A DNA stretch of 64,000 nt, taken from NCBI GenBank assembly GCA_050250375.1, contig JBFWOS010000003.1, forward strand, positions 273,284 to 337,283. Direction: 5' to 3'. The notes beneath the pieces were generated by a model, which did not search any database, had not been told where the DNA came from, and worked only from the letters and a program-made list of their open reading frames with translations. Position numbers and translations under genes: made by a program. Of the stretch, positions 32,389-45,803 are shown piece by piece. This DNA comes from Candidatus Omnitrophota bacterium. GTDB taxonomy: Bacteria; Omnitrophota; Gorgyraeia; Zapsychrales; Zapsychraceae. Numbering within the stretch: the first letter of the stretch is position 1; each line of letters begins with the position of its first letter.

Positions 32389-32790
32389 TCAGCGTCTGGA
32401 CGGATCGAATGAATTTCTGGTCTGTTCATCAAAAATCATGTAATAAAGGCTAATTCCGTGGAGGATCGTACCGATGGGAAATCCGATAAGAAAAACAGCC
32501 GAAACCATCATTTGAAAAATCCGGGCGGATTCTTTCAAGGCCGACAAACCTTTATTTATAAAATATAACAAAACGATCGGGACAGCGCCGACAGCCAGAA
32601 TCAAAAAAATCATTCCGGTGATATCCAGCCAGGTGATTTCTCCGGCGGCAGACAACCGTCCTTCCTCAATCAGATCCGGCAGGATCATCCCCAAAGCCAG
32701 TACAATCACAATGACAGCCACGCCCATCTGTAAACGATTAATAACGATGGAATACTTAACACCAAAAGGTAATCGGGGATCTAACGTCAT
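32389..32790 (-). CDS. small multi-pass membrane protein, translationally coupled to the giant ORF
   Basis: 133 aa, 3-4 hydrophobic helices. Its ATG overlaps the giant ORF's stop (ATGA, 4-nt overlap). Confidence 0.5.
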   Translation of the reverse strand: MTLDPRLPFGVKYSIVINRLQMGVAVIVIVLALGMILPDLIEEGRLSAAGEITWLDITGMIFLILAVGAVPIVLLYFINKGLSALKESARIFQMMVSAVFLIGFPIGTILHGISLYYMIFDEQTRNSFDPSRR

Positions 32791-35700
32791 TTCTTAACCA
32801 TTAAATCCTTATCCGTCTCTGAATAACCCATAAGGAACAACCCGGGGTTGATCATCGGTGTAAACTGGATGATATTGAATTCCATTCCCTGAAAATTAAT
32901 CAGTGGTACGGCCGGGACCGTGAGCGGCGATGTGTCTATTGTGTTACTCTGTATCGTCATGACTTTGCTTTCAGTATTCCTTAAATCAATCCCACCTTTT
33001 TTAGCGGAGGACTGTTGCAGATCTTCGGCTGTTTCTTTCTCAAAATCAGAATAACGCAGTACCCCGTCTGAATTTGTATTGGCCAGAACAGCCATGTCGC
33101 CAAAAACATACCCGAATTTCTCCTGGGTCAAAAGATCTGTTTCCATGGTCAATTCTTCAATCAACTCTTTCCCAAAATGGGCCAGATGCGGTTGTTGTTC
33201 ATCGATTAATTTTTCCAAGGCCCCCAGGTTTTTGACCGGGATAATGAACCGCCAGTCAAGGATACTATCATTGTGTTGGTCGACTTCAAAATCATGGGCC
33301 CCCAATTGTTCAAGTCTCTTGCGGTCGCCTTCATTCAACTCGAGTCCTCCGCCGATGGTATTATACTGGACCGGTTTTCCTGTTTTAACAGGGCCGTGCC
33401 GCATCAGGAGCAGCTTTCCATCAACCATGAATCTAACCCGGCTTTTAACCGTCACGCGGACCTCACCAAATCTTTCCAGCGCATCGCCTCGGTCGTCATA
33501 AACCGTTTTGTGGGGTACCGCAGAAAACAAACGATAACGTTCGGCCATACCCAGCTGGTCAAATTGTTTGAGGACCGGCGGGACATTGCGTGTGATGACG
33601 GCTTCTACAGGTTCGCCTCCGATGGTCGTTTCAAAACGCCCGTTCAAGATTTCTTCATCCGTAGCCAGAATGAACTTCCCGTCGCTACCGCTGGCAGCTT
33701 CACGAAAAATGTCCTCCCCTTCGGGGCTCAATTGCGCGTCATAAACCTTCATGTACGTCACGGAAGGTTTTTTATTGCTCTCGGAATAAAACTGACGCTG
33801 ACCTTCGTAAGATATCGTAACGTGAGGCCCCGTATAAATCGTCTGGCTCAACGGATTAATAAGCCGGTTCGACTTAACGCTGACCTTATCATGAAATTGT
33901 GTTTTCTTGAGAGTTTCATCTTCCATCGCTTTTGTCATCCGCTCGCGTCTTATTTTCCTTAAGGCAAATTTCACTTCAAGGCTCAAGAATATGACGGGAA
34001 TTGTAGCCGGAAAGAGCAACCCTGATAATAAAATTGGGATGCTGAACATCTTCCGGTTTTTGGTCAGATAATTTTTCATTTTTTCGTCAAGTTTGTTTCG
34101 TTCCTCTTCACTTATGTTTTTGTCATTTCTGAAGCGTTCAATGATATTTTCAAAGAAACTGAACTCTTCATCCGGTTCCATATAGGCTAAGTAAGGAAGA
34201 ATTCTTGAAATCACGATGAAATAAACAATCGACAATGAGGCCAAAGACAGGCCGAATACTTCGGGGGTGGTAAATACTTCCGTTATCGTAATATCAGGGA
34301 AACTGGGGAGCCCTAGTTTTTCAAGCACTAAATCTAGAGTTGGGACTATGACAAAGACAGAACTGATGAAAAACAATACTGTATAAATAAATTTCATCGC
34401 CATGCTGAAATTTCTCTGATGCAGGTCGCTGCCGGTGGCAAGGCTGTGCTGAGGCAGGTATTGATAAGAACTATCAATGCTGTCATGTTCATCTCTTAGA
34501 TTTTTTAATTTACGTTCATATAAAGCCGCCCGGAAAATCGGCGGCTGGGAAGAACTGATGATTTTGGCCTGTGCGATCTCCAGGTCTTTAAGCGTATCAG
34601 ACATTTCATCGATGGTAACGAGCACGTCATTGCTGGACCACTCATACAGCGATGTGACCCCGAAGAAATCTCTTAATTTGGCCGCAAGAGTAATCCCGAA
34701 CGGTTTCCATAAAAATCTGCTTTTCGCCTCCTGAAATTGACTTTTCAAGACATAGAGTCCGGTAAAACTGGCCATCAGCAGTCTTACTTGATTAGCGTAT
34801 TGGGCCAGCGTCAGAAAATATTCCTGATATTTCAACAGGTCCGGACTGTTCGCCCGGGTCAGAACCATGTAGCTGTCCAAGGCATATTCCCGGATTTCAT
34901 TATAGTATCCGGCATTCTTCTTAAAATCTCCGATCTTAAGATCCGAGGAATCCATAAACTGCTGGATCCGGGTTACCAGGCGGTTTAGCGGTTCAAGATC
35001 AAGACGCTCGGGATTTTCCTTAAACTGGTCCCATTCGTTCATCAAATCAATGAATCCGTCTTTGCTTACCGCGATTTCAACCGTTTTCTGATCCTGCCCT
35101 TGCGGCTGGAACCCTATCCCCAGGGCTTCAACACCGGCAGGGACATCCTGTACGTTTATGCGGATACCCGTTGGATGATGGTCGACGGAAACCCTGTCCG
35201 GCTCGACTTCTACCCGCCGGCCCTCTTCAATCAAATATAATTTCAACCGAGGATCATCCCCCCCGGCCGCAGTCCCTTGACTATTATTCACAAAAGCCGT
35301 TTGAATATTCTGAAGCATACTCCTTTTATTCCTGAAGAAACTTTCAGCGAATATACGCAATTCGACATGCCCGTTGACCCGGACCGTTTTAACATCATAA
35401 AAACGCGATGATTTCAGACGAAATAACGGCGTCCACCCCTTGGATTTTGGCATGAAATGTCGAGAAAAATAATTCAAAAACTCCCCCTTAACGGAAATTT
35501 TCGATGACTCTGCTTTAATCCCGTTAATATCCGCCCGTGGATCCATGGACTTTAACTTATTCAGTTTCTTTTGATATTCCCTTTCGGTCGCAAAAATAAA
35601 ACTGTTCGGGACAATAAGCCGGGTCAACCCGAAGCTTCCGACTGCCAGCAAAAATGGAATAAATAAATTAATCAAGAACCCCAGATTCCAGAGCACCAGA

Positions 35701-38700
35701 AGGACCGAAACGACATAGGCCCTCCTCCTCCAGATGTCATGGCCGGTAATGCTGTCCGGAAAAGGTTTTTCAAGCCCATCGGTGAACGTATAAAATTCCC
35801 GCTGTAAATTTTCCAATGAGTAAGACTTCCCCGCGACATAATTTTCTTCTCCAAGGATTTCCTCCTCCAACCGGTCCAGACTTCGACGGGAATTGTAATA
35901 ATCAGTAATCGCCGTTAAGGCCTTTCGTTTGGCCCGGCCGAAGGCCAGCTCCGACAGGGAAATCATCCTCGACCACTTGTCCAACGGATAATGGAACAAT
36001 CGGAAACTCAGGTCGTCGCGTGTGGGGAGAAATAAACTCTGATTGGTGTCCAGGGTCGCATTGTGTCCTTTTAACCGCGCAATGACGGTATACTGTAAGG
36101 CGGTTTCCCGAAAGTATTGTTTGAATATTTCTGAAACGTTGTTTTCTTTCTTCATCCTTTCCAACATACCGATGGACAACTCCTGAAGATAAAAATTTGT
36201 TTCAACCGATTTTCCCCTGACGTCTTTAAAAACAACCGGATTCTCCTCACGAAAACGCCTCATCTTTAAAACCCATTCCTCCAGACTCATGATCTCTTTC
36301 AGGCGTTTTGACTGGTCTTTGGCCAGTTCATGCGCGCGTTGGGCCCGTCTCAATTCGCCTTCCAGCATCGAAACCTTCAGGCTTTCCCGTTTTTCCTGAT
36401 CCAGCAGGGATTTACGTTCTTTTTTTAATTCATGCAGCCGTTTTTTGGTCAGGTCTTTTTGTTGTCTGGCTTTACTGCGGTCCAACTCCAATTCTTGTTG
36501 ATGTTCATATAGTTTGTCAGCCGCCAAGGTGGCCCGGAACTGATCCAGAAACTCCTGTAATCTTTCTTCGACAAGCGGTATTTCAAACGCGTCGAACTTT
36601 TCTCCTCTTATTCTGAAACTGACGGACAGGGGATCTCCAGATTTAAACCGGACTCCTTTTTTCCAATCTTTCCGGGAAAGAACCAAATGCAACTTTATGC
36701 TGGTTGTTTTGACTTCCACGTTTGATAGTTTAAGTTCGGTCGGTTTGCCGCGGTTCGCCAGAATTCGGATATCTTTGGATTTAAAAGCCGAAGCAACCGC
36801 ATCCGCCGTTTCCTGTTTGGAATGTTTCCGTCCATTGAGGGCATTCTTGGCTCTTAAAGTCACGATAACCTCCTCTCCCTTAAGCTCAGCAGATATCTGT
36901 TCAAACGCCGTCCTTTTCGACATCAACGCCTCTTTAAGAAAGAGCGTAAAATGATTTTTTTGCCCGCCTTTTAAATAGTCTGAAAATGTTCTGAGAAACG
37001 ATTCCTTGGATGTTTCTGAACGTTCTTTTCCTTTACGGTTCTGGAAAAACACAAATAAAAAAGAAACCATGGCCAGGACGGAAAACACAATCTCGAAGAA
37101 TCTTTGGAAAAAACCTTGTTTGGGTGTTTCCGGTGTCCGATCCGTCACTGGCTCTCTTTCATCCATGATTGGCGAAGTCCTTTCTTGGACCTCTGGCTCA
37201 ACGGATAGATCGTGTTCCGGAATAATTGGTGGTATGTCCGTACGGGGTAGTGGTTGCATCTGTCTTTCCCCTTCAGCCCGTTCCGGCGAGGCTCCACCTG
37301 AAAGATCGGGTAATGCCTGCAGCAACGGTAACGGCTGTCCGGTCAACCGTTGCTGGACCAATTCCGGTAAAATCCCACGGGCCATCTTAAATGTTTGATT
37401 GGTTAATATGAGATCCGGGTTATCAGGGTTGGGAACAATTGTATTGGTTAAGTAATCAACCGCGCCGCCCTCGACCCAGAACGGTTTGGAGAATTCAGAC
37501 TGCCTAAAATTCGCCCGGTCATGTTTCCGGTATGACCGCCGTATATCCTGCAGGATCTCCCCCATGGTGTCCCCCTGTTCAACCTGGATCACCAGGTTTC
37601 CCTGTTGATCGTTCGTATACGTTGCCGCGCTCGCTTGTGAGAGTAACGCCAGATTGCTTAAGGTCAAAAAAACCAGCATGCCGGTTAAGGCGATCGGTTT
37701 TTTAAAATGTGCAGGTAACCCTGAAAAAAGCTTAAACCGCCAGGGGAATTGATAATCGGAGGATGTTCCAGGTTCGGAATTTTCCTTGGACTGGTAGGAA
37801 CGGATCAGTTCACTCGCGCTGACACCAATCGGCTTGAGCTGAATTTTTGTTAATGTCAATTTTTTCTTAAGTTTGTCTAATAAATTGATAACACTGCCGC
37901 CGTACTGCGAAACGGAACGGAAACTCAGCCACTGGGAGGGATTTTTAAAACTGAACCCTCCGCTGAAATACTTGCGCGGGATCACCGACTGGTTTTCATC
38001 CAGGTCTTCTTTGACATAGTTATAAACACCCATTTTGAGGGCCTGGATGTATTGTTCATAGACCTCCTCTTTAATTTCAACGCGGCCGGAATCAATGCCT
38101 TTAATTTTATTCTGGTCTCCATAAAGTTCCGTAATGATATTCCGTTTTAAGTGGCTTTTATACCACAAGGCCAGAATGAGTGAATAATAGACCTGCCGCA
38201 ATGAGGCGAAATGCTCCCCTTCATTGACTTCCTTCTTTAATTCAGGGAGGATGATTTCTTTGATAATCTGGGCAGCAATCTGATTGGATTTGTCCTGATG
38301 TTCCGCATCGTCGGCCGGAACATCCGGTGATAGCCCTGTGCGGAATTCTTGCCGGTGTTCATTGTACCGTGACTGGGCCAGGTAATCTTCCTCAAGCATA
38401 ACATCCAGGCTTGTTTCACTGACAAAGGCCATATTGTCTTTTTCATAAACAACCGCCCTCTCGGGAACGATCCAGATCTTATTGAAATTGTGGATGGGAA
38501 TATCCGTTAAACCGTATCTATCTTCAATCTGTTTATACACACGGCTCCAGAACTCCTGTCCCAATTTTGTTTCCGGATAAGTCATTGACGCAGACAATTG
38601 TTTTAACAGATAATCCTGCAAAAGAAGTTCCCGTCCCAGCTCGGTCTTGACCAGTTGATCGGGAATAATCCGGGACGGCTCATAAGGCGATAAATTAACC

Positions 38701-39041
38701 CACAGTTCATCGACCGGAACGGTTAATGTCGTAAGAAAATATTTAATGAGCGTGTCCGCATCCTGCCGGCTGATTGTTTCCTGATCACCGGAATCGATCA
38801 TAAAATCAATCTCAAAGGGGTTCTGGGGATAAACCCTGATCGCCCTTAAAACAGGATATTGCACCGCGGCCGACGAAGTTATGAGCGTTCCCGGGCTGGT
38901 GAGCATCAACTGGCTGGCCTGAGCCAGGTCGGAAACCAAGACGTTGAATGTAAAACAGTGCAGAAGCACCAGGCAAATAAACTTAAAACCGCGTGAACGG
39001 CGTATATTTCCCAAAGTACCAGGATTATATTTACTTAACAT
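32787..39041 (-). CDS. giant (2084 aa) membrane-associated protein of unknown function
   Basis: Uninterrupted 6.25-kb ORF. N-terminal signal/TM (FKFICLVLLHCFTFNVLVSDLAQASQ). At least seven further dispersed hydrophobic helices (e.g. IALTGMLVFLTLSNLALL; FFEIVFSVLAMVSFLFVFF; YVVSVLLVLWNLGFLINLFIPFLLAVGSFGL; FIYTVLFFISSVFVIVP; MFSIPILLSGLLFPATIPVIFLSL). A Pro/Glu-rich linker (..PLPRTDIPPIIPEHDLSVEPEVQERTSP..) and a long coiled-coil stretch (ELELDRSKARQQKDLTKKRLHELKKERKSLLDQEKRESLK..). No catalytic motif recognised. Confidence 0.7.
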   Translation of the reverse strand: MLSKYNPGTLGNIRRSRGFKFICLVLLHCFTFNVLVSDLAQASQLMLTSPGTLITSSAAVQYPVLRAIRVYPQNPFEIDFMIDSGDQETISRQDADTLIKYFLTTLTVPVDELWVNLSPYEPSRIIPDQLVKTELGRELLLQDYLLKQLSASMTYPETKLGQEFWSRVYKQIEDRYGLTDIPIHNFNKIWIVPERAVVYEKDNMAFVSETSLDVMLEEDYLAQSRYNEHRQEFRTGLSPDVPADDAEHQDKSNQIAAQIIKEIILPELKKEVNEGEHFASLRQVYYSLILALWYKSHLKRNIITELYGDQNKIKGIDSGRVEIKEEVYEQYIQALKMGVYNYVKEDLDENQSVIPRKYFSGGFSFKNPSQWLSFRSVSQYGGSVINLLDKLKKKLTLTKIQLKPIGVSASELIRSYQSKENSEPGTSSDYQFPWRFKLFSGLPAHFKKPIALTGMLVFLTLSNLALLSQASAATYTNDQQGNLVIQVEQGDTMGEILQDIRRSYRKHDRANFRQSEFSKPFWVEGGAVDYLTNTIVPNPDNPDLILTNQTFKMARGILPELVQQRLTGQPLPLLQALPDLSGGASPERAEGERQMQPLPRTDIPPIIPEHDLSVEPEVQERTSPIMDEREPVTDRTPETPKQGFFQRFFEIVFSVLAMVSFLFVFFQNRKGKERSETSKESFLRTFSDYLKGGQKNHFTLFLKEALMSKRTAFEQISAELKGEEVIVTLRAKNALNGRKHSKQETADAVASAFKSKDIRILANRGKPTELKLSNVEVKTTSIKLHLVLSRKDWKKGVRFKSGDPLSVSFRIRGEKFDAFEIPLVEERLQEFLDQFRATLAADKLYEHQQELELDRSKARQQKDLTKKRLHELKKERKSLLDQEKRESLKVSMLEGELRRAQRAHELAKDQSKRLKEIMSLEEWVLKMRRFREENPVVFKDVRGKSVETNFYLQELSIGMLERMKKENNVSEIFKQYFRETALQYTVIARLKGHNATLDTNQSLFLPTRDDLSFRLFHYPLDKWSRMISLSELAFGRAKRKALTAITDYYNSRRSLDRLEEEILGEENYVAGKSYSLENLQREFYTFTDGLEKPFPDSITGHDIWRRRAYVVSVLLVLWNLGFLINLFIPFLLAVGSFGLTRLIVPNSFIFATEREYQKKLNKLKSMDPRADINGIKAESSKISVKGEFLNYFSRHFMPKSKGWTPLFRLKSSRFYDVKTVRVNGHVELRIFAESFFRNKRSMLQNIQTAFVNNSQGTAAGGDDPRLKLYLIEEGRRVEVEPDRVSVDHHPTGIRINVQDVPAGVEALGIGFQPQGQDQKTVEIAVSKDGFIDLMNEWDQFKENPERLDLEPLNRLVTRIQQFMDSSDLKIGDFKKNAGYYNEIREYALDSYMVLTRANSPDLLKYQEYFLTLAQYANQVRLLMASFTGLYVLKSQFQEAKSRFLWKPFGITLAAKLRDFFGVTSLYEWSSNDVLVTIDEMSDTLKDLEIAQAKIISSSQPPIFRAALYERKLKNLRDEHDSIDSSYQYLPQHSLATGSDLHQRNFSMAMKFIYTVLFFISSVFVIVPTLDLVLEKLGLPSFPDITITEVFTTPEVFGLSLASLSIVYFIVISRILPYLAYMEPDEEFSFFENIIERFRNDKNISEEERNKLDEKMKNYLTKNRKMFSIPILLSGLLFPATIPVIFLSLEVKFALRKIRRERMTKAMEDETLKKTQFHDKVSVKSNRLINPLSQTIYTGPHVTISYEGQRQFYSESNKKPSVTYMKVYDAQLSPEGEDIFREAASGSDGKFILATDEEILNGRFETTIGGEPVEAVITRNVPPVLKQFDQLGMAERYRLFSAVPHKTVYDDRGDALERFGEVRVTVKSRVRFMVDGKLLLMRHGPVKTGKPVQYNTIGGGLELNEGDRKRLEQLGAHDFEVDQHNDSILDWRFIIPVKNLGALEKLIDEQQPHLAHFGKELIEELTMETDLLTQEKFGYVFGDMAVLANTNSDGVLRYSDFEKETAEDLQQSSAKKGGIDLRNTESKVMTIQSNTIDTSPLTVPAVPLINFQGMEFNIIQFTPMINPGLFLMGYSETDKDLMVKK

Positions 39042-39184: not shown

Positions 39185-39586
39185 CTATGACGGGGAATCG
39201 GTTTTATCCGTTAGCGGTTTCAGTATTTTGACGATTTCCCTGTCTTCATCAATAAACGAAAATTCGTGCATACGTCCGGGGTCAATCCAACTGATTTCCG
39301 AATGCACACGAAGTTCCGGAAGGCCTTCGGCCCATTGGGCCTGAAAGGCATACAAGACCATATTTCGGCCTCTAAAATATCCTTCTATCTTGCCCAAAAG
39401 TTTCTCGACCTTAACAATGATATTTAATTCCTCTTTCATTTCACGGACAAGACATTGTTCCGGCGTTTCCCCGGATTCGATGTGTCCTCCGGGAAACTCC
39501 CAAAACTGGTCTTTGCTGCGTTTGGCGATGAGGATATGCCCTTCTTTCCAGATAACTCCAGCGGTGGCTATTTTCAGCATATTCAT
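39185..39586 (-). CDS. NUDIX hydrolase (MutT-like)
   Basis: 133 aa. Nudix box GGHIESGETPEQCLVREMKEELNI (GX5EX7REUXEEXGU). Confidence 0.8.
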   Translation of the reverse strand: MNMLKIATAGVIWKEGHILIAKRSKDQFWEFPGGHIESGETPEQCLVREMKEELNIIVKVEKLLGKIEGYFRGRNMVLYAFQAQWAEGLPELRVHSEISWIDPGRMHEFSFIDEDREIVKILKPLTDKTDSPS

Positions 39587-39676
39587 ATCTTAGCTCGCTT
39601 TCAGAGTGCTGCCCACTCATAATATTTTTTCGAAAACCTTTGAAACGTCTTTTTTAAATCGAATACCTGATGCACT

Positions 39677-40603
39677 TCACCCGTTAAGAAAGGCCCGATC
39701 GAACGACCGGGCCAGGGTCCGCAAAATTTTTCTTTTTTCCTGATACGTATACCCTACAAAACGGATCGTTGGAGTATTATTGGCATCAACAATATAAATC
39801 CTTTGATCAGACCTGTCCCGGACAATATCCAGTTCCCCGCAATCAAACCCCATCCTCTTGCAAAAAAGAATAATTTTACTGACTTCATCGGAACTGAATA
39901 TCTGGCCGGATTCCGTCAAACCCGCTTTGACCGACATACCGAAACGGTCAGTGATCGATTTATATTTCAGAAAAACCAGCGGAATATCTTTATCAAAAAA
40001 AGGAACCCTGAAATCAACAACATAATTCTCATCATCACGGTTATCAATCAGACGCTGGTAGACCTTTCCTTCTACTTTTTCAATCATCGGGCTCAGAATA
40101 ATTCTTCCATCGTGTTTTCCATTCAAGTTCGATTTTTCCACATACGGACCTTGGAAATCCGACGGATTGATCATCAACCGGTACCCGAATACTTCGTTAA
40201 AGACTTCATCGACGCGATTTTTACTTATATCACGGCAGTTATAATTGAGCATTCTATTTTTTTGGGCCAACCGGTTTAGCCGGTCATCATATTGCCCGAA
40301 TGTTCGGTCCTGCCAATTAATACAGAGATCAATCACCCCGTCCTCAGATGGATTCATGTTCAAACCCAATTCACGACACAACCGAATGATCGTATAATCC
40401 CATGGCATCCGGCAAGGGTGGTCGGGATAAAAAAGAATATTTACTGGTTTTCCGGATAGAATTCTTTGAAATCTTCTAGAAACTTTCGGTTGCCGGAGGA
40501 AGAATCGTTTGGCGGCAGCAGGTAAATTCAGGCTGAATCGCAGTGCTTGTTTAACCGGTTGAGGAAGAATTTTCCTTAAGAAATTCAAGAAAAATTCTTT
40601 CAT
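39677..40603 (-). CDS. ATP-grasp-like protein (possibly TupA-type), unknown substrate
   Basis: 308 aa. The C-terminal ELDIVRDRSDQRIYIVDANNTP resembles the ATP-grasp Mg-binding E/D-x-N strand. Overlaps the upstream OCD-family gene by 4 nt. Assignment by eye only. Confidence 0.45.
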   Translation of the reverse strand: MKEFFLNFLRKILPQPVKQALRFSLNLPAAAKRFFLRQPKVSRRFQRILSGKPVNILFYPDHPCRMPWDYTIIRLCRELGLNMNPSEDGVIDLCINWQDRTFGQYDDRLNRLAQKNRMLNYNCRDISKNRVDEVFNEVFGYRLMINPSDFQGPYVEKSNLNGKHDGRIILSPMIEKVEGKVYQRLIDNRDDENYVVDFRVPFFDKDIPLVFLKYKSITDRFGMSVKAGLTESGQIFSSDEVSKIILFCKRMGFDCGELDIVRDRSDQRIYIVDANNTPTIRFVGYTYQEKRKILRTLARSFDRAFLNG

Positions 40604-41589
40604 TGATTAGCCTTCTTTAATCGATGAAACAGGAAATGACAGATCAGGGCGTCCTGCACGGCCGTTCCTGTTGAAATGAAAAGCACTTTCTCACGCTTTT
40701 TTTTCGTGGATGTTACAATTTTACGAAGTTCAACAATGTCGGTCTTGTCCATCAACCCATCGTCATGCCATCTTTTCATATCCCCAAAATGAATATTCTG
40801 ACGAGATTCACTCACGATAGTCCACTTCCCAGCAAATCCCGGATCAATCTCTGATAAATTATCCGCATCCGCTCCGACACTGGAAATAAAATTGATATCC
40901 CCGGCATCAGAAATTTTCAGTACGGGTTTCCGGGACGTGGTTGACAAAAACAAGGCCGTACTTTGCCGGCAGATCACTTTCATGGTCACCGGCTTGATTT
41001 CCATACTCCTGTCCAACAACTTTTTAAATTCCGAAACTCGTTTTTGATGGTGATCATACACATATATGGTGTCTAACCCGCACCAGCGGGATAAAATAAA
41101 AGCCGTATAATATCCTATTCGGCCCGCTCCCACTACCCCCACCGTTTCCTTCTCTAAAGTACCGGCATGTTTAAAAGCCAGCACACTCAAGGCGGCTGTC
41201 CTGAACGACGAGAGGGCGCAGACATCAAATAAGGCTTCAACAAAATTGTCAGTCGCATTGATCAACATGGCTTTACCAACACAAATTTTATCTGGAACCA
41301 CCCGTTCCTCTTCATTGGTCCCGATCACTTTGACCGCCTTGATGGTCTGTCCTTCAAATGGATGGATGACACAGGGCATGACCCTAAAGTCTCCTTTAAA
41401 GCACCCATTGGTAAAAACTTCCTTTTTCGGCTGGTGAACGAGCTTGGAGTTAATCCGCCACTCCCGATAAAATTTCTCCAGGGTATCCATAAACTCAGGT
41501 GTGTGTTTGACTAAGGCCTCATGAATCTGTCGTTCTCTAAAATATTGGCATGGTTCATCATGCAGACGTAAATGTTTAAAACTGTTCAT
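40600..41589 (-). CDS. ornithine cyclodeaminase/mu-crystallin (OCD) family NAD-dependent enzyme
   Basis: 329 aa. OCD-family blocks ..ALSSFRTAALSVLAFKH.. (compare ..TALRTAA.SALA.K.L) and Rossmann GVVGAGRIGYYTAF. Confidence 0.7.
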   Translation of the reverse strand: MNSFKHLRLHDEPCQYFRERQIHEALVKHTPEFMDTLEKFYREWRINSKLVHQPKKEVFTNGCFKGDFRVMPCVIHPFEGQTIKAVKVIGTNEEERVVPDKICVGKAMLINATDNFVEALFDVCALSSFRTAALSVLAFKHAGTLEKETVGVVGAGRIGYYTAFILSRWCGLDTIYVYDHHQKRVSEFKKLLDRSMEIKPVTMKVICRQSTALFLSTTSRKPVLKISDAGDINFISSVGADADNLSEIDPGFAGKWTIVSESRQNIHFGDMKRWHDDGLMDKTDIVELRKIVTSTKKKREKVLFISTGTAVQDALICHFLFHRLKKANQ

Positions 41590-41612
41590 GGCATAAAGTA
41601 TATCACCCCCTT

Positions 41613-42017
41613 TTGGAAATTCCCAAAATTATGTTAGACTTAATTTCTATGCAAATACACACTCAGAAAAATATTCCACCAAGGCTTAAATTTGGAATTT
41701 TGTTGCTTGCAGTCCAAATAATTTTGATCGTGCTGGCCAGGTTCACTGAAGCTAGGTATTTTTGCTGGGCCCCGCATGATTCACAGAATGACTATGTGCT
41801 TCATGTCACAGTGAACGAACAGCCATTAAGTGCTGATGCCATCTATACCCGTTACCGCCTGTACAAAAATGGACGCGACCCGCGTTCAATCCAGCATGTG
41901 AAAGATGTCTTGTCTCGGTATGAGAAAACCCTCGGGAAAGACCAGCCCGCACAGATCACTTTAACTTACACAACCAACGGCATTAAACAACCAGTATGGA
42001 AATGGCCCATCCCGTAA
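41613..42017 (+). CDS. hypothetical membrane-anchored protein
   Basis: 134 aa, one N-terminal TM (KFGILLLAVQIILIVLARF). Overlaps the next ORF by 22 nt in another frame. Confidence 0.4.
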   Translation: MEIPKIMLDLISMQIHTQKNIPPRLKFGILLLAVQIILIVLARFTEARYFCWAPHDSQNDYVLHVTVNEQPLSADAIYTRYRLYKNGRDPRSIQHVKDVLSRYEKTLGKDQPAQITLTYTTNGIKQPVWKWPIP

Positions 42018-43084
42018 AGAATCCCTTTTCGCTGAATAGTGATGAATTGCCGCCTTCGGTAATTCTAATGGTCAAGGTTATTGCCCTGAGTCTATTGTTA
42101 AAAGGGTATTTGTTCCAGATGTCCGATCACTTTGTCCCACTCGTCCCCATTTTTGATTACTTTGGCCCGCCAGCCCTGTTCCGGTTAATTTTACAAGCAG
42201 TCTTTTTGTTCTCCACCATCTCCATACTCTTCACATATAAAATCCGGTTAAACTGCCTTTTGCTGGGATCTGTCTTCTTAATTGTCCCAATGTCTTCTAT
42301 TGTCAGTTATCTGAACGCAAAAGTTTTTTGCGGATTTATATTTTTAATGGCCGGTCTGCACAGAAAAGGGGAAAATCCCTGGCTTATCCGTTTACAGGTG
42401 TCGTTGGTGTATTTCGGTTCGGGTTTAAATAAGCTGCTTGATCCGGACTGGCTTTCTGGACAATACTTTGAATACTGGATGCATGAAATTATCATTAATA
42501 AAAAATATATTATGGCCGCCTCTTACTTACCTCCTATGTTATTATCCAAACTCATGGGCTGGTTAACCATAATAGGAGAATTTGTGATTTCAGTCTTCTT
42601 AACATCTAAGCGATATTATTCATTAGCGATTTGGATGGGTATATGTTTTCACACGACAGCATTGGTCATGACATGGATGGATTATGGAATTTTTACGATC
42701 GCGATACTAATGTCGTATCTGTGTTTTATCCGTTGGCCGGAAATGATTGAGATTACAGTCAATCCCGACAGGAGTCTTCATATTCTCCTAAAAAATATTC
42801 TTTCTAGAATGGATTGTGACAAAAGGATCATCTGGCGGGAAGCAACCGATCCGACATTATCCGTTACAGTGAATAAAATCATCTTCCGAGGGTTTATCGG
42901 GTTTAAAAAAATTGTTCTTTATTCTCCGGTATTTTATTTTTTGATGGCCATTCTCTTGAGTGGAACACAGGGGTATGTCAATTCGTTTCAAATCAGGATG
43001 GTTGAACTGATATTTTTATTTTTTCTTCCGGTTCCTGAAATGATTAGTTTATCTCAAAAATATAAACGAACTGTTTTCACTTAA
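41996..43084 (+). CDS. multi-pass membrane protein, HTTM-like N-terminal region with a DUF393/DCC-like C-terminal tail lacking the CxxC
   Basis: 362 aa. ~7 TM helices, then a soluble segment (..RMDCDKRIIWREATDP..KIIFRGFIGFKKIVLYSP..) reminiscent of the DCC thiol-disulfide oxidoreductase fold but without its CxxC. Tentative. Confidence 0.4.
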   Translation: MEMAHPVKNPFSLNSDELPPSVILMVKVIALSLLLKGYLFQMSDHFVPLVPIFDYFGPPALFRLILQAVFLFSTISILFTYKIRLNCLLLGSVFLIVPMSSIVSYLNAKVFCGFIFLMAGLHRKGENPWLIRLQVSLVYFGSGLNKLLDPDWLSGQYFEYWMHEIIINKKYIMAASYLPPMLLSKLMGWLTIIGEFVISVFLTSKRYYSLAIWMGICFHTTALVMTWMDYGIFTIAILMSYLCFIRWPEMIEITVNPDRSLHILLKNILSRMDCDKRIIWREATDPTLSVTVNKIIFRGFIGFKKIVLYSPVFYFLMAILLSGTQGYVNSFQIRMVELIFLFFLPVPEMISLSQKYKRTVFT

Positions 43085-43698
43085 ACTTCTTTCTTTAAAT
43101 CAAAAATCTTCTCAAGCCAAATAAAACCCAGATAAAAAATGCCGGCCATATATCCGGCAGCATGAGAACCGGGAACGGCCCGGACAGAAAGGTCGGTAAA
43201 GATTGTTTCATGGGTTGACAGTTCAAAAAATATCTTGGCCACCGTTGCCAATAAAATACCCAGACACATCTTTTCTCCGGTCCGTTTATATTGCGTAACG
43301 GCCGCCAAAACCAACATTCCATTTAATGCACCGGACAAACCGCAATAACTGCTGAACTTAGTTTCAATAAAAAACATCCAGCCGCTGACGGCCAGACAGC
43401 TGACAAAGAGGCAGGGCAGGAAATGACGGGGATTATTGAGTTCAATCACCGAACCGATGACGAGAAAAGCCAACAGATCCCACAATAGATGTTGAAAATT
43501 ACAATGCACGAAATGCGCGGTAAACAACCGCCAGAATTCACCCTGCGCGATCAGCGTTTTATCAAACAAAAGACTGTTGAACAAAATTTGTCCGGACAGA
43601 TATAAGCCGATCATGCCCAGGGTTAACATCACAGTCAGCCACGGCACCTTGAGGGTGCCGCGGCTTTTTTCTTTTTGGAATAGATGGATGTTCATCAT
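43081..43698 (-). CDS. short rhomboid-family intramembrane serine protease, rhombosortase-like
   Basis: 205 aa. EFWRLFTAHFVHCNFQHLLWDL (rhomboid helix 2), catalytic GLSGALNG (GxSG) and HAAGYMAG (His). The size and position directly after a GlyGly-CTERM protein fit rhombosortase. Confidence 0.8.
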   Translation of the reverse strand: MMNIHLFQKEKSRGTLKVPWLTVMLTLGMIGLYLSGQILFNSLLFDKTLIAQGEFWRLFTAHFVHCNFQHLLWDLLAFLVIGSVIELNNPRHFLPCLFVSCLAVSGWMFFIETKFSSYCGLSGALNGMLVLAAVTQYKRTGEKMCLGILLATVAKIFFELSTHETIFTDLSVRAVPGSHAAGYMAGIFYLGFIWLEKIFDLKKEV

Positions 43699-43700
43699 AA

Positions 43701-45803
43701 TTAAACCTTATCTTCTTTTCGTTTCCTTAATCCCCATAATAACGGAGAAAACAAGAGCACTGCGCCGGGACCAAACGCCCCGCCGCCACCGGCATACGTA
43801 GGCTGATTTCCACTGAACATCGGTTGCTGCGTATCCACGCGATAAGATTGGGCCGGTTGAGCGGAACGAACCTGACGGGCCTGGTATTCCGTTTTTAATC
43901 GCTGCTGATTACGCCGGTCAATCCCCAATTCCTGATACACCTCTTCTTTTAAAACAATCATGGACGTGTAATCGGTGACCAGTGAATACTCTACACCGAG
44001 ATCCACCACACTTTGTTTCTTGTCGGCAGTCTCGCCAAAATCATCCATTTGCTGGATCAGTTCTTCAATGGACGCGTAAGCCCATAATCGTTCGATCTCC
44101 GGGTTCGTGGTTGCCGCTTCCGGAAAATTAAATCGTGTGGAATAAGATTTATCCAGACCGGAAATCTTCCCCTGCAACGTCACCTCGGCCGGTCCAGATC
44201 CAAAATAGTGGCCGAAAACAATCAACTGTTGTCCTCGGTAAACACTGCCGATGGAGGACGGGTTTATATCCGCGGTTTTAACCCCGTTGATCTTAACCTG
44301 TGCGCCGTGTAACGCCTGAAAATTGACCTTGCTCTGGGCCTCGAGGATTTTTCCGATAATATCATCGGAATTGGAAACATTGATCGCGAAGCCGTTCGTC
44401 TCCCGGGTTAACGCATTCAATAACGGTTCATTCGCGCTATTGCCCATAATGTAAGTAAACAAACGAATGTCGTATTTCTTGATCATTTCAATAAAGCCCT
44501 TTTGTTCCGTCACCCCGACATTGGCAACTCCGTCGGTCACCAGCAAAATGCTGGAGGTGCGGTCAGAGTCTAGGCTTTTTAGTCCAAGTTGAAGGCCCCC
44601 ATAAAGATTGGTCCCGTTATTCGGACTTACGGTAGAAACGGCATTGATGTAATGATTCACATTCTGCGCCGTAGCCGTGACAAAACCGTTCGTCAACTCT
44701 CTCGCCGTATCATTAAACAGGACAATGCGAAACCGGTCTTCGGGTTTCATGGTTTTCAAAGCCCGGGATACCCCCTCGGCCAATGTCGCGTACTTCCCTT
44801 GCATTGAACCGGAAATATCCAGGACAAAAACCCAGTCGCGTCCTTCCACAATCGGCTGTAAATCCATGCCCGGGGTAATTGTCAGCATAAACGTTCCGCG
44901 CTGTGATGTTGCTTCTTTAAAGGCCACGAGGTCAACGCTTCCGGGAAGATTTTCAGCGTGACGATAATAGATGGCGATATCCGTGTCCAGCCTGAAATTC
45001 GGATCAGCCTGGACTGTCGGTAAAGGCGTGTCGTCACCGCTATTACTCTGGTTAATGGTCAGCGTTGAAGGATCCGCTTGAGCACTGCTTGAACGGATAA
45101 GATGGTTGTCCAGGTGGATCATCCATTCACCATTATTGTTTGTTATCTGCGCCTGCGGGTGGTTCGGCAGCCGCACGTCGGCAACCGGGTAGGCAGACTT
45201 TAAAACAAGGTCAAAACTGAATGTCCCGCTGACCTTATCATTGGTCTTCCAAAAGGCCAGGGCCGCGTCATCCACGCCTCCCTCTTCAAGCGGATACAAA
45301 TAACGGCCAATGCCGGTGTCGACATGGGCCGGCTGGATGTAACTGATCCTGACCTTGGTCTGCTGATTGGCCCTGACGGGTGAGACACTCATCTCAAATG
45401 TCTTGTAATCATTTTTTTCGGTTAGCCCGGCATCATTATTTTTTGATTTCTGCTCTTCATAGACTTCGCGGGCTTTTTTCTTTTCGAGGACTTCACCGCT
45501 GATCGGCTTTCCATCAATCCACATCGTAAATTCTGAAACCGCCCCTTTTTTCGGAACAGGGAACGAATAAATGGCCTCAAGATCCTGTCCGTTCGGGTTA
45601 TAAAAAGTCTGGTCAACCGTCGTGATCGCGTAACCGTCTTCAACAACCACATGAACCTGATGATCTTTGATCTGCAATTCGGGCAGACCGGAATCCTTGG
45701 GCGTCAAAAGTCCGGCGGCCTGCGCGGAACCGGTGAGGATCAAGAACATGATACCGGCAGCCAGCCCGCCTCCTCTCCTGAGTTTTGTTTGTTGAGTTTT
45801 CAT
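43701..45803 (-). CDS. secreted VIT-domain + von Willebrand factor A protein with C-terminal GlyGly-CTERM sorting signal
   Basis: 700 aa. Signal peptide. VIT-like N-domain (..VVEDGYAITTVDQTFYNPNGQDLEAIYSFPVPKKGAVSEFTMWIDGK..). vWA with MIDAS DISGSM..T. C-terminus GGGGAFGPGAVLLFSPLLWGLRKRKEDKV (Gly-Gly, hydrophobic helix, basic tail). Stop is 2 nt from the rhombosortase start. Confidence 0.85.
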   Translation of the reverse strand: MKTQQTKLRRGGGLAAGIMFLILTGSAQAAGLLTPKDSGLPELQIKDHQVHVVVEDGYAITTVDQTFYNPNGQDLEAIYSFPVPKKGAVSEFTMWIDGKPISGEVLEKKKAREVYEEQKSKNNDAGLTEKNDYKTFEMSVSPVRANQQTKVRISYIQPAHVDTGIGRYLYPLEEGGVDDAALAFWKTNDKVSGTFSFDLVLKSAYPVADVRLPNHPQAQITNNNGEWMIHLDNHLIRSSSAQADPSTLTINQSNSGDDTPLPTVQADPNFRLDTDIAIYYRHAENLPGSVDLVAFKEATSQRGTFMLTITPGMDLQPIVEGRDWVFVLDISGSMQGKYATLAEGVSRALKTMKPEDRFRIVLFNDTARELTNGFVTATAQNVNHYINAVSTVSPNNGTNLYGGLQLGLKSLDSDRTSSILLVTDGVANVGVTEQKGFIEMIKKYDIRLFTYIMGNSANEPLLNALTRETNGFAINVSNSDDIIGKILEAQSKVNFQALHGAQVKINGVKTADINPSSIGSVYRGQQLIVFGHYFGSGPAEVTLQGKISGLDKSYSTRFNFPEAATTNPEIERLWAYASIEELIQQMDDFGETADKKQSVVDLGVEYSLVTDYTSMIVLKEEVYQELGIDRRNQQRLKTEYQARQVRSAQPAQSYRVDTQQPMFSGNQPTYAGGGGAFGPGAVLLFSPLLWGLRKRKEDKV

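What the first reader, a model, noticed from the sequence alone, without database searches (positions are those of the whole stretch)
39185..41589. Compact operon: OCD/mu-crystallin-family enzyme, ATP-grasp-like ligase, NUDIX hydrolase
The three minus-strand genes are tightly packed (OCD and ATP-grasp overlap by 4 nt). OCD-family enzymes such as ornithine or lysine cyclodeaminase, SbnB and alanine dehydrogenase make cyclic or diamino acids. An ATP-grasp partner would ligate such a product to an amine or acid, and the Nudix enzyme could tailor or proof-read a nucleotide-linked intermediate. This looks like a small-molecule or peptide-modification pathway that I cannot map to a described one. 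The ATP-grasp assignment rests on a by-eye motif (ELDIVRD..IYIVDANNTP).
Basis: partly seen in the sequence, partly recalled or inferred. Interest (0 to 1): 0.6.

Follow-up and report, generated by a model that had tools for sequence, protein, structure and literature searches.

The report
Coupled amino-acid reductase and ATP-grasp ligase
Two overlapping genes, an OCD/mu-crystallin-type NAD-dependent reductase and a previously unannotated ATP-grasp ligase, form a conserved and sometimes fused enzyme pair that probably makes an unusual amino acid and joins it to another molecule through an amide bond. The neighbouring NUDIX gene is not part of the pair.

Summary
All three minus-strand ORFs exist at the stated coordinates in a Candidatus Omnitrophota MAG. 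The OCD and NUDIX calls are confirmed by Pfam. The middle gene has no Pfam or NCBIfam hit, but it is an ATP-grasp: the AF2 model has pLDDT 90, all top Foldseek PDB hits are ATP-grasp enzymes, the family profile reaches RimK at E=4e-4, and the Mg/ATP motif is conserved. It belongs to an unannotated family of about 1,550 clusters at 50% identity.

The operon claim holds for two genes only. OCD and the ATP-grasp share an ATGA start/stop overlap. They keep the same order and strand in 15 other loci with unrelated flanks. They occur as single fused proteins (P0131, P0132, P0136).

This OCD subfamily is almost always next to some carboxylate-activating enzyme. Four clearly different types are seen, plus a weakly AsnB-like protein, and the OCD motifs do not change with partner type.

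NUDIX has 0 hits in 139 related loci.

The OCD keeps the family's catalytic tetrad and NAD-specifying Asp but lacks the cyclodeaminase triad. Its closest solved relatives are imine and amino-acid reductases.

Best reading: the reductase makes a non-standard (N-alkyl/opine-type or imino) amino acid and the ligase attaches it. The product and acceptor are unknown. The closest tested precedent is the C. difficile flagellin-glycan ATP-grasp/OCD pair.

The parts
40600..41589 (-). OCD/mu-crystallin-family NAD-dependent dehydrogenase or imine reductase (329 aa). It belongs to a distinct subfamily with the signature motifs KGDFRVMP, VKVIGTNEE, SSFRTAA, SSVGADADNLSE and FISTGTAVQDAL.
   Evidence: PF02423 E=5e-24. 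It scores below every NCBIfam equivalog cut-off. Closest PDB relatives are AfAlaDH 1OMO at 8e-18 and Pyr2C reductase 6T3E at 9e-17. K56, R69, K84/K87, R130, D179, D241 and D313 are conserved in 31 subfamily sequences. The motifs do not change with the partner ligase type.
39677..40603 (-). ATP-grasp ligase of an unannotated family (308 aa). It has an N-terminal basic helical extension of about 45 residues (1-50), then an ATP-grasp core with invariant or near-invariant K128, K157, R199, D259, R262, D273 and N275.
   Evidence: No Pfam or NCBIfam hit. AF2 pLDDT 90.2 and pTM 0.86. The Foldseek PDB top 50 are all ATP-grasp enzymes, E down to 5e-8. The family profile hits RimK at E=3.6e-4. 9 of 38 homologues hit PF08443 weakly. 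The family holds 1,550 clusters at 50% identity.
40600..40603 (-). ATGA start/stop overlap between OCD and the ATP-grasp (translational coupling).
   Evidence: Read directly from the sequence. The ATP-grasp start overlaps the OCD stop in the same way in L081 and L084 (4 nt), and the two ORFs also overlap in L083.
41590..41660 (-). Upstream region of the pair. It holds an SD-like GGGGGTGA about 13 nt before the OCD ATG and two weak sigma-70-like matches (41655-41628 and 41626-41597).
   Evidence: These are consensus matches only, and the number found is not above the shuffle expectation (8 found against 6.4 expected).
39682..39713 (-). Terminator-like element inside the last codons of the ATP-grasp ORF: hairpin GGCCCGGTCG-TTCG-ATCGGGCC followed by TTTCTT. 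It may be a full or partial transcription stop before NUDIX.
   Evidence: It has 9 pairs, 7 of them G-C. The T-tail is poor, so its function is inferred, not shown.
39185..39586 (-). MutT-like NUDIX hydrolase (133 aa). It is an adjacent gene and is NOT part of the conserved module.
   Evidence: PF00293 E=5e-19. The MutT equivalog scores 73 bits against a cut-off of 97.9. The best profile match is PADLOC candidate PDC-S07 at 113 bits. The Nudix box G-x5-E-x7-REMKEELNI is intact except for the final G, which is N (read from the sequence). It has 0 tblastn hits in 139 related loci.

Best explanation
The unit is a self-contained two-enzyme module. Shown: the two genes are translationally coupled, and their products are sometimes fused into one polypeptide. 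Inferred, step 1: the OCD/mu-crystallin-family enzyme uses NAD(H) to reduce a C=N bond next to a carboxylate. That bond is either an imine formed between a 2-oxo acid and ammonia or an amine (alanine-dehydrogenase, N-alkyl-amino-acid or opine-synthase type chemistry) or a cyclic imino acid. The result is a non-standard alpha-amino acid. It is not expected to cyclodeaminate ornithine or lysine. Inferred, step 2: the ATP-grasp enzyme activates a carboxylate as an acyl-phosphate and forms an amide bond that joins this amino acid to a second molecule. Which partner supplies the carboxylate and what the acceptor is are unknown. In related loci the module sits in glycan-biosynthesis clusters or next to secretion genes. 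The most likely role across the family is therefore to decorate a cell-surface glycan or another exported molecule with an unusual amino acid. In this window, which has no glycosyltransferases nearby, a soluble dipeptide-like product is equally possible. The NUDIX gene is an unrelated neighbour.
For: ATP-grasp fold. RimK profile hit. Conserved Lys, Arg, Asp and Asn catalytic-type residues. OCD family membership with an intact tetrad and the NAD-specifying Asp: with residue definitions from PMC4141209. Nearest solved relatives are reductases or dehydrogenases rather than cyclodeaminases. Coupling: the ATGA overlap; the same OCD-then-ligase order and strand in all 15 co-occurring loci with otherwise unrelated flanks; natural fusions P0132 and P0136, in which the OCD domain replaces the ligase's N-terminal helices, with P0136 seen on 6 contigs from at least 3 samples. 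Non-orthologous displacement: the same OCD subfamily, with the same motifs, is adjacent to the MID ATP-grasp, a cyanophycin-synthetase-like ATP-grasp, a RimK/LysX-like ATP-grasp, a PaaK/F390-synthetase-like adenylating enzyme or a weakly AsnB-like protein in about 22 of 24 evaluable core loci. Glycan context in relatives: GT2, GT4, capsule-synthesis, sulfotransferase and sugar-epimerase genes. Precedent: in C. difficile RT027 an adjacent ATP-grasp (CDR20291_0245) and OCD-like gene (CDR20291_0246) are each required for the flagellin glycan cap (PMC5207246). NMR shows that cap contains alanine N-alkylated by ethylsulfonate (PMC5207245), which is a tauropine-type opine. Identifying it as tauropine is my inference. 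OCD-family tauropine, strombine and N-methyl-alanine dehydrogenase activities are documented (PMC4141209, PMC8446579).
Against: No substrate or product is shown, and every chemical step is inferred from family membership. The window locus and its closest relatives (L001, L081, L083, L084) contain no glycosyltransferase or any third conserved gene, so the acceptor cannot be named. The top Foldseek hits include ATP-grasp kinases (PPIP5K/Vip1, ITPK1) at E-values as good as those of the ligases, so kinase chemistry is not excluded by structure alone. Two members of the window's ATP-grasp clade (L002, L082) lack an adjacent OCD. Whether NUDIX is co-transcribed in this genome is unresolved.
Confidence: 0.7

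Rival explanations
1. This is the three-gene pathway the first reader proposed. OCD makes a cyclic or diamino acid, the ATP-grasp ligates it, and NUDIX tailors or proofreads a nucleotide-linked intermediate.
For: All three genes are on the same strand and close together. NUDIX has an intact catalytic box (read from the sequence).
Against: NUDIX has 0 tblastn hits in 139 loci (1.6 Mb) that encode homologues of the other two genes, including all 15 loci carrying the pair. A 90-nt gap and a hairpin/T-tract separate it from the ATP-grasp. Its best profile matches are generic MutT-type or PDC-S07. ATP-grasp chemistry goes through acyl-phosphates, not nucleotidyl intermediates (established knowledge).
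Confidence: 0.04
2. The OCD gene is a true ornithine (or lysine) cyclodeaminase for proline or pipecolate synthesis, and the ATP-grasp then incorporates the cyclic amino acid.
For: Pfam family name. Weak matches to cyclodeaminase NCBIfam models. Cyclic amino acids are common building blocks.
Against: The cyclization triad E56-D228-K232 of P. putida OCD (PMC4141209) reads R69-D241-L245 here and is conserved as such across the subfamily. Cyclodeaminase structures are the weakest PDB matches, at 5e-7 to 1e-4, against 8e-18 for AfAlaDH. Scores are far below the equivalog cut-offs, for example 35.6 against 350.
Confidence: 0.1
3. The ATP-grasp protein is a kinase, like the inositol-phosphate kinases ITPK1 and PPIP5K, that phosphorylates a sugar or polyol. 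The OCD-like enzyme then acts on an unrelated step.
For: The top Foldseek hits are Vip1/Asp1/PPIP5K2 and ITPK1 kinases, at E 5e-8 to 4e-7. Two of 38 homologues hit PF05770 weakly.
Against: Sequence-profile similarity is to the ligase RimK only (9 of 38 members hit PF08443). TM-scores are equal or higher for ligases (TTLL6 0.53, ArgX 0.51, PsnB 0.51). Next to the same OCD subfamily this protein is replaced by RimK/LysX-like, cyanophycin-synthetase-like and adenylate-forming enzymes, all of which activate carboxylates.
Confidence: 0.08
4. The ATP-grasp modifies a protein, by RimK/TTLL-like addition of amino acids to a C-terminus or side chain, or by RiPP macrocyclisation. The OCD-like enzyme supplies or tailors the amino acid.
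For: RimK is the only sequence-level relative. RiPP macrocyclases (MdnC, PsnB) and TTLL6 are among the structural hits. One relative sits in an RTX/type-I-secretion locus.
Against: There is no conserved small precursor gene or target protein next to the pair in any of the 15 loci, where flanking genes are all singletons. Glycan genes are much the commonest context of the wider family, in 31 of about 77 loci.
Confidence: 0.08

Closest known systems
C. difficile RT027 type-B flagellin glycan genes CDR20291_0245 (ATP-grasp) and CDR20291_0246 (OCD/alanine-dehydrogenase-like)
   Same: An OCD-family gene lies next to an ATP-grasp gene. Both are genetically required for one product, the peptidylamido cap 'taurinyl-Ala-Gly' on Fuc3N (PMC5207246, PMC5207245). 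The N-alkylated alanine in that cap fits OCD-family opine-synthase chemistry followed by amide ligation. Relatives of the window pair also sit in glycan loci.
   Different: Gene order is reversed. The C. difficile ATP-grasp is a PF13535-type protein, whereas the window protein hits no Pfam model. The window locus has no glycosyltransferases. Sequence orthology could not be tested. The biochemical roles of the C. difficile enzymes are themselves undetermined (PMC5207246).
Archaeoglobus fulgidus alanine dehydrogenase AF1665 (PDB 1OMO) and Thermococcus Pyr2C reductase/N-methyl-Ala dehydrogenase LhpI (PDB 6T3E)
   Same: These are the best solved relatives of the OCD gene, at E 8e-18 and 9e-17. They share the GDLR(A/V)MP motif, the Arg at the position of OCD Glu56, the catalytic tetrad and the NAD-specifying Asp (PMC4141209).
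   Different: The window protein scores only 81 bits against a 409-bit equivalog cut-off. It has Leu where AfAlaDH has Lys223. It carries a subfamily-specific acidic loop, GTNEEE. It has an obligatory ligase partner.
RimK / LysX / ArgX family of ATP-grasp amino-acid ligases
   Same: ATP-grasp fold. Homology is detectable by profile over the ATP-binding half. It has the Mg-binding D...D-x-N motif and is of similar size.
   Different: There is no hit to TIGR00768 or PF08443 for the window protein itself. The N-terminal substrate domain is different, and there is a basic helical extension of about 45 residues. There is no S6 or LysW-type carrier gene nearby.
SbnA/SbnB and the dapdiamide DdaA/B plus DdaF systems (an OCD-family dehydrogenase supplies L-Dap to ATP-dependent ligases)
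   Same: The logic is the same: an OCD-family NAD enzyme makes a non-proteinogenic amino acid, and an ATP-dependent ligase then incorporates it. SbnB (4M54) is a detectable relative at E 1.5e-10.
   Different: There is no SbnA-type PLP enzyme next to the pair in any locus. The SbnB equivalog scores 53.6 against a cut-off of 326.9. The details of the DdaF and NIS synthetase systems are recalled from my own knowledge and were not tested here.

Membership tests
OCD/mu-crystallin superfamily (PF02423) | Full-length match to the family profile above the gathering score | tested here: met
   85.3 bits against a cut-off of 24, covering profile positions 19-312 of 314.
OCD/mu-crystallin superfamily (PF02423) | Rossmann GxGxxG/A motif, NAD-specifying Asp, and the substrate-binding tetrad [R/K]-K-R-D (PMC4141209) | tested here: met
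   G154-A-G-R-I-G159. D179 is conserved in 30 of 31 sequences, K56 in 28, K87 in 29 (K84 in 22), R130 in 30 and D313 in 30. Positions were mapped through the HMMER alignment to 1OMO.
Ornithine cyclodeaminase proper (EC 4.3.1.12) | Cyclization triad E56-D228-K232 (P. putida numbering; PMC4141209) | tested here: not met
   The equivalent residues are R69-D241-L245, conserved in 29, 31 and 24 of 31 subfamily sequences.
Ornithine cyclodeaminase proper (EC 4.3.1.12) | Score above an NCBIfam equivalog cut-off | tested here: not met
   NF005762 scores 35.6 against 350, and NF006379 scores 60 against 417.
Archaeal alanine dehydrogenase (TIGR02371) | Equivalog score, and the R52-D219-K223 residues | tested here: not met
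   81.4 bits against a cut-off of 409. The Arg and Asp are present, but the Lys is replaced by Leu245.
SbnB-type ACEGA dehydrogenase (TIGR03944) | Equivalog score, and an adjacent SbnA-like PLP enzyme | tested here: not met
   53.6 bits against a cut-off of 326.9. No PLP cysteine-synthase-like neighbour is present in the window or in the loci carrying the pair.
OCD-family opine (tauropine/strombine) dehydrogenases | Reductive condensation of pyruvate or glyoxylate with an amine, and sequence clustering with the sponge enzymes | not testable with these tools
   No sponge sequences or curated model were available. The activity needs an enzyme assay.
ATP-grasp superfamily | Three-domain ATP-grasp fold | tested here: met
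ATP-grasp superfamily | Conserved phosphate-binding Lys residues and the Mg-binding acidic/Asn triad (E/D ... E/D-x-N) | tested here: met
   K128, K157, R199, D259, R262 and D273 are invariant and N275 is at least 90% conserved in 38 sequences. 'GELDILR' aligns with 'GVDILR' of RimK.
RimK family (PF08443 / TIGR00768) | Match of the protein itself to the curated family model | tested here: not met
   No hit at E<=1 for the window protein. Only 9 of 38 relatives match weakly, with a best E of 4e-6.
   No hit for the window protein or for any of 38 homologues among the families listed.
NUDIX hydrolases (PF00293) | Profile match and the Nudix box GX5EX7REUXEEXGU | tested here: met
   69.2 bits against a cut-off of 21.1. 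The box G-HIESG-E-TPEQCLV-RE-M-K-EE-L-N-I is complete except for the final G, which is N (read from the sequence).
MutT 8-oxo-dGTPase (TIGR00586) | Equivalog score | tested here: not met
   73.1 bits against a cut-off of 97.9.
   OCD and the ATP-grasp co-occur in 15 loci. NUDIX occurs in 0 of 139 loci.
C. difficile type-B flagellin glycan ATP-grasp/OCD pair | Adjacent OCD-like and ATP-grasp genes inside a glycan locus, with orthology to CDR20291_0245/0246 | tested here: inconclusive
   Adjacency is met. Glycan context is met in relatives but not in the window. Orthology is not testable because no sequences were available.
Known anti-phage defence systems (PADLOC) | Match of OCD or the ATP-grasp to a defence-system model | tested here: not met
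   The ATP-grasp has no hit, and OCD has only a 16.6-bit Rossmann-type match.

The most novel reading that the evidence does not exclude
The OCD-like enzyme is a bacterial opine-type synthase, carrying out reductive condensation of a 2-oxo acid with an amine. Together with interchangeable ATP-dependent ligases it forms a widespread, unrecognised toolkit that caps cell-surface glycans or other exported molecules with N-(carboxyalkyl) amino acids. The tauropine-like cap of C. difficile flagellin would be one instance of this. The unannotated ATP-grasp family of about 1,500 clusters would then be a new class of glycan or metabolite amidoligases found across many bacterial phyla and some archaea.
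Probability: 0.25. Interest if true: 0.7.

Novelty: new variant of a known kind. Interest (0 to 1): 0.5.

Why it matters
Both superfamilies are well known. What is new is threefold. The ligase belongs to a sizeable ATP-grasp family (about 1,550 clusters at 50% identity, in many phyla) that no curated model covers. The OCD subfamily has no assigned activity. Their obligate pairing, and occasional fusion, has not been described.

The pairing gives a direct experimental handle: express two genes, or one natural fusion gene, and look for the product. It also offers a mechanistic hypothesis for the unexplained roles of the ATP-grasp/OCD genes needed for the C. difficile flagellin glycan cap.

If the product is an opine-type amino acid attached to glycans, it would explain how such substituents are made and would add a new tailoring step to bacterial surface chemistry. 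If it is a small soluble dipeptide-like compound, it would be a new two-enzyme route to a non-ribosomal amide.

Tried and rejected
1. Possible link between the divergent DoxX/SdpB-like membrane gene (41996-43084) and the roughly 210-aa membrane domain fused to the ATP-grasp in P0004/L082. BLASTP found no similarity and Pfam found no hit for the fused domain. Dropped.

2. An apparent 625-aa 'OCD fusion' ORF in L095. It is an Arg/Ala-rich wrong-frame artefact of GC-rich DNA. Rejected.

3. A joint alignment of fusions, OCD-only rows and ligase-only rows (A3) for structure prediction. The ligase rows were misaligned onto the OCD half. Discarded.

4. AF2 model of the natural fusion P0132 built on alignment A4. 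The ATP-grasp half is confident, but the OCD half is below pLDDT 50 because the alignment held only three sequences for it. No inter-domain geometry could be read.

6. Search for a riboswitch or RNA element around the operon. Nothing credible was found.

7. Defence-system reading of OCD and the ATP-grasp. No PADLOC match.

8. Literature searches for a described OCD plus ATP-grasp module, for ATP-grasp glucuronate amidoligases, and for O-antigen opine genes. Only the C. difficile genetics were relevant.

9. A third conserved partner gene. None exists: the flanking genes of the pair are singletons across loci.
Full report
OBSERVATION. The window comes from a Candidatus Omnitrophota MAG. The middle protein is 100% identical to NCBI 'MAG: hypothetical protein AB7S78_06605'. 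The OCD stop and the MID start share ATGA. MID and NUDIX are 90 nt apart. A 9-bp GC-rich hairpin followed by TTTCTT lies in the last MID codons. Pfam confirms OCD_Mu_crystall (E=5e-24) and NUDIX (E=5e-19). MID matches nothing in Pfam or NCBIfam even at E<=1.

THE MIDDLE GENE IS AN ATP-GRASP OF AN UNANNOTATED FAMILY. MID has 226 word-indexed homologues, almost all labelled 'hypothetical'. An exhaustive profile search finds 1,550 clusters at 50% identity, of which 1,361 have E<=1e-10. At least 553 GTDB species from many bacterial phyla and some archaea encode it. An alignment of 38 members shows invariant K128, K157, R199, D259, R262 and D273 and near-invariant N275. The family profile reaches E. 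coli RimK at E=3.6e-4, aligning 'GELDILR' with 'GVDILR'. Nine of the 38 members hit PF08443 weakly. An AF2 model (pLDDT 90.2, pTM 0.86) gives 139 Foldseek PDB matches at E<=1e-3. The top 50 are all ATP-grasp enzymes: PPIP5K/Vip1, ITPK1, ArgX/LysX, MdnC/PsnB, PruB, Ddl, RimK and TTLL6. So the fold assignment is correct, but the protein is not a member of RimK, TupA or any other curated family.

THE OCD GENE IS A REDUCTASE/DEHYDROGENASE-TYPE MEMBER, NOT A CYCLODEAMINASE. It scores far below every NCBIfam equivalog cut-off. A profile of five orthologues hits A. fulgidus alanine dehydrogenase (8e-18), Pyr2C reductase (9e-17), iminosuccinate reductase, mu-crystallin/ketimine reductase and SbnB. Ornithine and lysine cyclodeaminases trail at 5e-7 to 1e-4. 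I used the residue definitions of PMC4141209 to check the active site. The substrate-binding tetrad (K56, K84/K87, R130, D313), the Rossmann motif and the NAD-specifying Asp (D179) are conserved in 31 subfamily sequences. The cyclization triad E-D-K of true OCD reads R69-D241-L245. The subfamily also has its own signature, including an acidic loop GTNEEE and the motif SSVGADADNLSE.

WHICH GENES BELONG TOGETHER. Among 80 genome loci of the wider MID family, only the closest one (Thiohalobacter, L001) has the OCD, and none has NUDIX. The closest metagenomic relatives (P0002, P0005, P0009; 44-49% identity) all have the OCD immediately upstream. In L081 and L084 the overlap is the same 4 nt. The surrounding contexts are entirely different: Mg transporters, the methylcitrate cycle, FBPase/RNase PH.

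I then searched in the reverse direction with the OCD subfamily and recovered 47 metagenome loci. In these, the gene next to the OCD is one of the following:
- MID, in 12 loci counting the window.
- A 594-613-aa cyanophycin-synthetase-like ATP-grasp (NF010623, 243 bits; PF08443, 39.7 bits against a cut-off of 21).
- A 332-aa RimK/LysX-like ATP-grasp.
- A PaaK/F390-synthetase-like adenylating enzyme.
- A weakly AsnB-like protein.

About 22 of 24 evaluable core-subfamily loci have such an enzyme adjacent. The two exceptions are cut off by contig ends. The OCD signature motifs are the same whichever ligase type is adjacent. That argues for one OCD product handled by interchangeable carboxylate-activating enzymes.

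Finally, three protein clusters (P0131, 584 aa; P0132, 592 aa; P0136, 583 aa) are natural fusions. The OCD domain is followed directly by the MID core, which starts at window residue 42-49 and is 50% identical. The N-terminal helical extension of about 45 residues is deleted, so a simple frameshift read-through is excluded. P0136 occurs on six contigs from at least three samples.

Across all 139 fetched loci (1.6 Mb), OCD and MID co-occur 15 times, always OCD then MID on one strand. NUDIX is never present. In a neighbour-joining tree the OCD-linked MID genes form two clades. L002 and L082 are nested in the window's clade but lack an adjacent OCD.

CONTEXT AND LIKELY ROLE. In the wider MID family the commonest neighbours are glycosyltransferases, in 31 of about 77 loci; the representative is a GT2+GT4 fusion. 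OCD+ligase modules sit in several kinds of locus:
- Beside GT2, GT4 and a hexapeptide acyltransferase (L087/L088).
- Beside GT2 and capsule-synthesis genes (L104).
- Beside a sulfotransferase (L107).
- After three GT2-like genes (fusion P0136, L133).
- In a GT1, sugar-epimerase and nucleotidyltransferase locus with a Dlt-like system in the cultured Desulfuromonas thiophila (L136).
- In one case inside an RTX/type-I-secretion locus (L138).

The window itself has no glycosyltransferase within about 12 kb. Its flanks are a pyruvate dehydrogenase complex, a giant 2084-aa protein, a DoxX-like membrane protein and a rhombosortase with its target. The pair has no third conserved neighbour, so it is a self-contained two-enzyme module.

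PRECEDENT. A literature search found one experimentally touched analogue. In C. difficile RT027, the adjacent genes CDR20291_0245 (ATP-grasp) and CDR20291_0246 (OCD/alanine-dehydrogenase-like) are each required for the terminal cap of the type-B flagellin glycan. Their biochemical roles remain undetermined (PMC5207246). The cap is 'taurinyl-Ala-Gly' amide-linked to Fuc3N, and NMR shows that the alanine nitrogen is alkylated by the ethylsulfonate (PMC5207245). That is N-(1-carboxyethyl)taurine, or tauropine. This identification is my inference and is not stated by the authors. OCD-family enzymes with tauropine, strombine, N-methyl-alanine and ACEGA dehydrogenase activities are documented (PMC4141209, PMC8446579). 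This gives a concrete chemical model: an OCD-type reductive condensation makes an N-substituted amino acid, and an ATP-grasp ligates it.

MECHANISM PROPOSED.
- Shown: the gene structure, the fold, the conserved catalytic-type residues, the coupling, the fusions and the partner displacement.
- Inferred: the OCD-like enzyme reduces an imine next to a carboxylate with NADH to produce a non-standard amino acid (N-alkyl/opine type, or a cyclic imino-acid reduction product).
- Inferred: the ATP-grasp forms an acyl-phosphate and then an amide that links this amino acid to an acceptor.
- Inferred: because the fusions replace the ligase's N-terminal helices with the OCD domain, the two proteins probably act as a complex.
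- Open: the acceptor. It could be a glycan, an exported molecule or a small metabolite.

Confidence in the two-gene module reading is about 0.7 to 0.85. Confidence in the specific opine-on-glycan version is about 0.25.

NUDIX. It has an intact Nudix box. It is MutT/NudG-like but below the equivalog cut-offs. Its best profile match is the PADLOC candidate PDC-S07 at 113 bits. It lies 143 nt upstream of the giant 2084-aa gene, whose C-terminus carries a SMODS-associated NUDIX domain. It is better treated as a separate gene, possibly associated with its downstream neighbour.

NOVELTY AND SCORE. The enzyme superfamilies and the logic of 'make an amino acid, then ligate it' are known. The ligase family, the OCD subfamily, and their obligate pairing or fusion are uncharacterised. 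I rate it a new variant of a known kind, with interest 0.5. It is a solid, testable lead rather than a surprise.

Noticed in passing
window 32787-39041 (-): A giant 2084-aa ORF with several apparent transmembrane segments. Its only family match is a C-terminal SMODS-associated NUDIX domain (PF18167, aa 1860-1979, 37.7 bits against a cut-off of 25). Its N-terminal 350 aa or so has two homologous copies in another Omnitrophota MAG (L008 5379-6407 and 199-1221, 40-42% identity), a few kb from a MID-family gene.
   Followed up: partly
window 39185-39586 (-): The small NUDIX protein matches the PADLOC phage-defence candidate model PDC-S07 (E=1.4e-33, 113 bits) better than MutT (73 bits). It sits directly upstream of the giant gene that carries the Sa_NUDIX domain, so the two NUDIX-type elements may belong together.
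   Followed up: partly
window 43081-45803 (-): A rhombosortase (TIGR03902, 122 bits against a cut-off of 84) lies immediately downstream of a 700-aa VIT/VWA protein that resembles the 'marine proteobacterial sortase target' and ends in a GlyGly-CTERM-like tail (GGGGAFGPGAVLLFSPLLWGLRKRKEDKV). This looks like a rhombosortase/substrate pair in an Omnitrophota genome.
   Followed up: partly
window 41613-43084 (+): These genes are divergent from the OCD gene. A 134-aa membrane ORF overlaps by 22 nt a 362-aa multi-pass membrane protein that has weak DoxX/MauE/SdpB-like matches. Their function is unknown, and they are not conserved next to the pair elsewhere.
   Followed up: partly
L082 2906-4465 (P0004); P0241-P0244, P0318, P0325, P0372: The MID ATP-grasp family has other architectures. 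One is a fusion to an N-terminal multi-pass membrane domain of about 210 aa with no Pfam hit. Another is tandem duplication (604-aa and roughly 1020-aa proteins with two matched stretches). A third is 570-720-aa proteins with extra domains.
   Followed up: no
L013, L018, L054, L078 (Mycobacterium / Mycolicibacterium): In four mycobacterial genomes the MID-family gene is preceded by a PLP-dependent Orn/DAP/Arg decarboxylase and followed by an 86-aa phosphopantetheine carrier protein. This is a different conserved context, suggesting an amine-forming step plus a carrier-linked acyl partner.
   Followed up: partly
L133/L134 and L136/L137: A SapC-family gene (PF07277) recurs within 1-3 kb of OCD+ligase modules in unrelated organisms.
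   Followed up: no
L138 3901-14184: A 1006-aa AMP-binding protein, the OCD-subfamily gene and a 581-aa RimK-like ATP-grasp lie between an RTX (HemolysinCabind) protein and a complete type-I secretion system (ABC, AprE/HlyD-like, OEP). This is a non-glycan context for the same OCD subfamily.
   Followed up: no
L103/L105 8413-10020: Downstream of OCD and the PaaK-like ligase lies a 535-aa fusion of a urea-transporter (UT) domain and TPR repeats, followed by a roughly 990-aa PA14/F5_F8-type-C/prenyltransferase-like protein.
   Followed up: no
window 40600-41589 (-): A public gene call for this OCD (P0125, 296 aa, 100% identical) starts 33 codons later than the ORF used here. The N-terminal stretch (LRLxDEPCQYF...) is conserved in all orthologues, so the shorter call is probably truncated.
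   Followed up: yes
window 51439-52947 (-): A 502-aa protein with strong matches to eukaryote-type lipase maturation factor domains (LMF1, 183 bits; LMF1_C, 183 bits). This is unusual to see in a bacterial genome.
   Followed up: no
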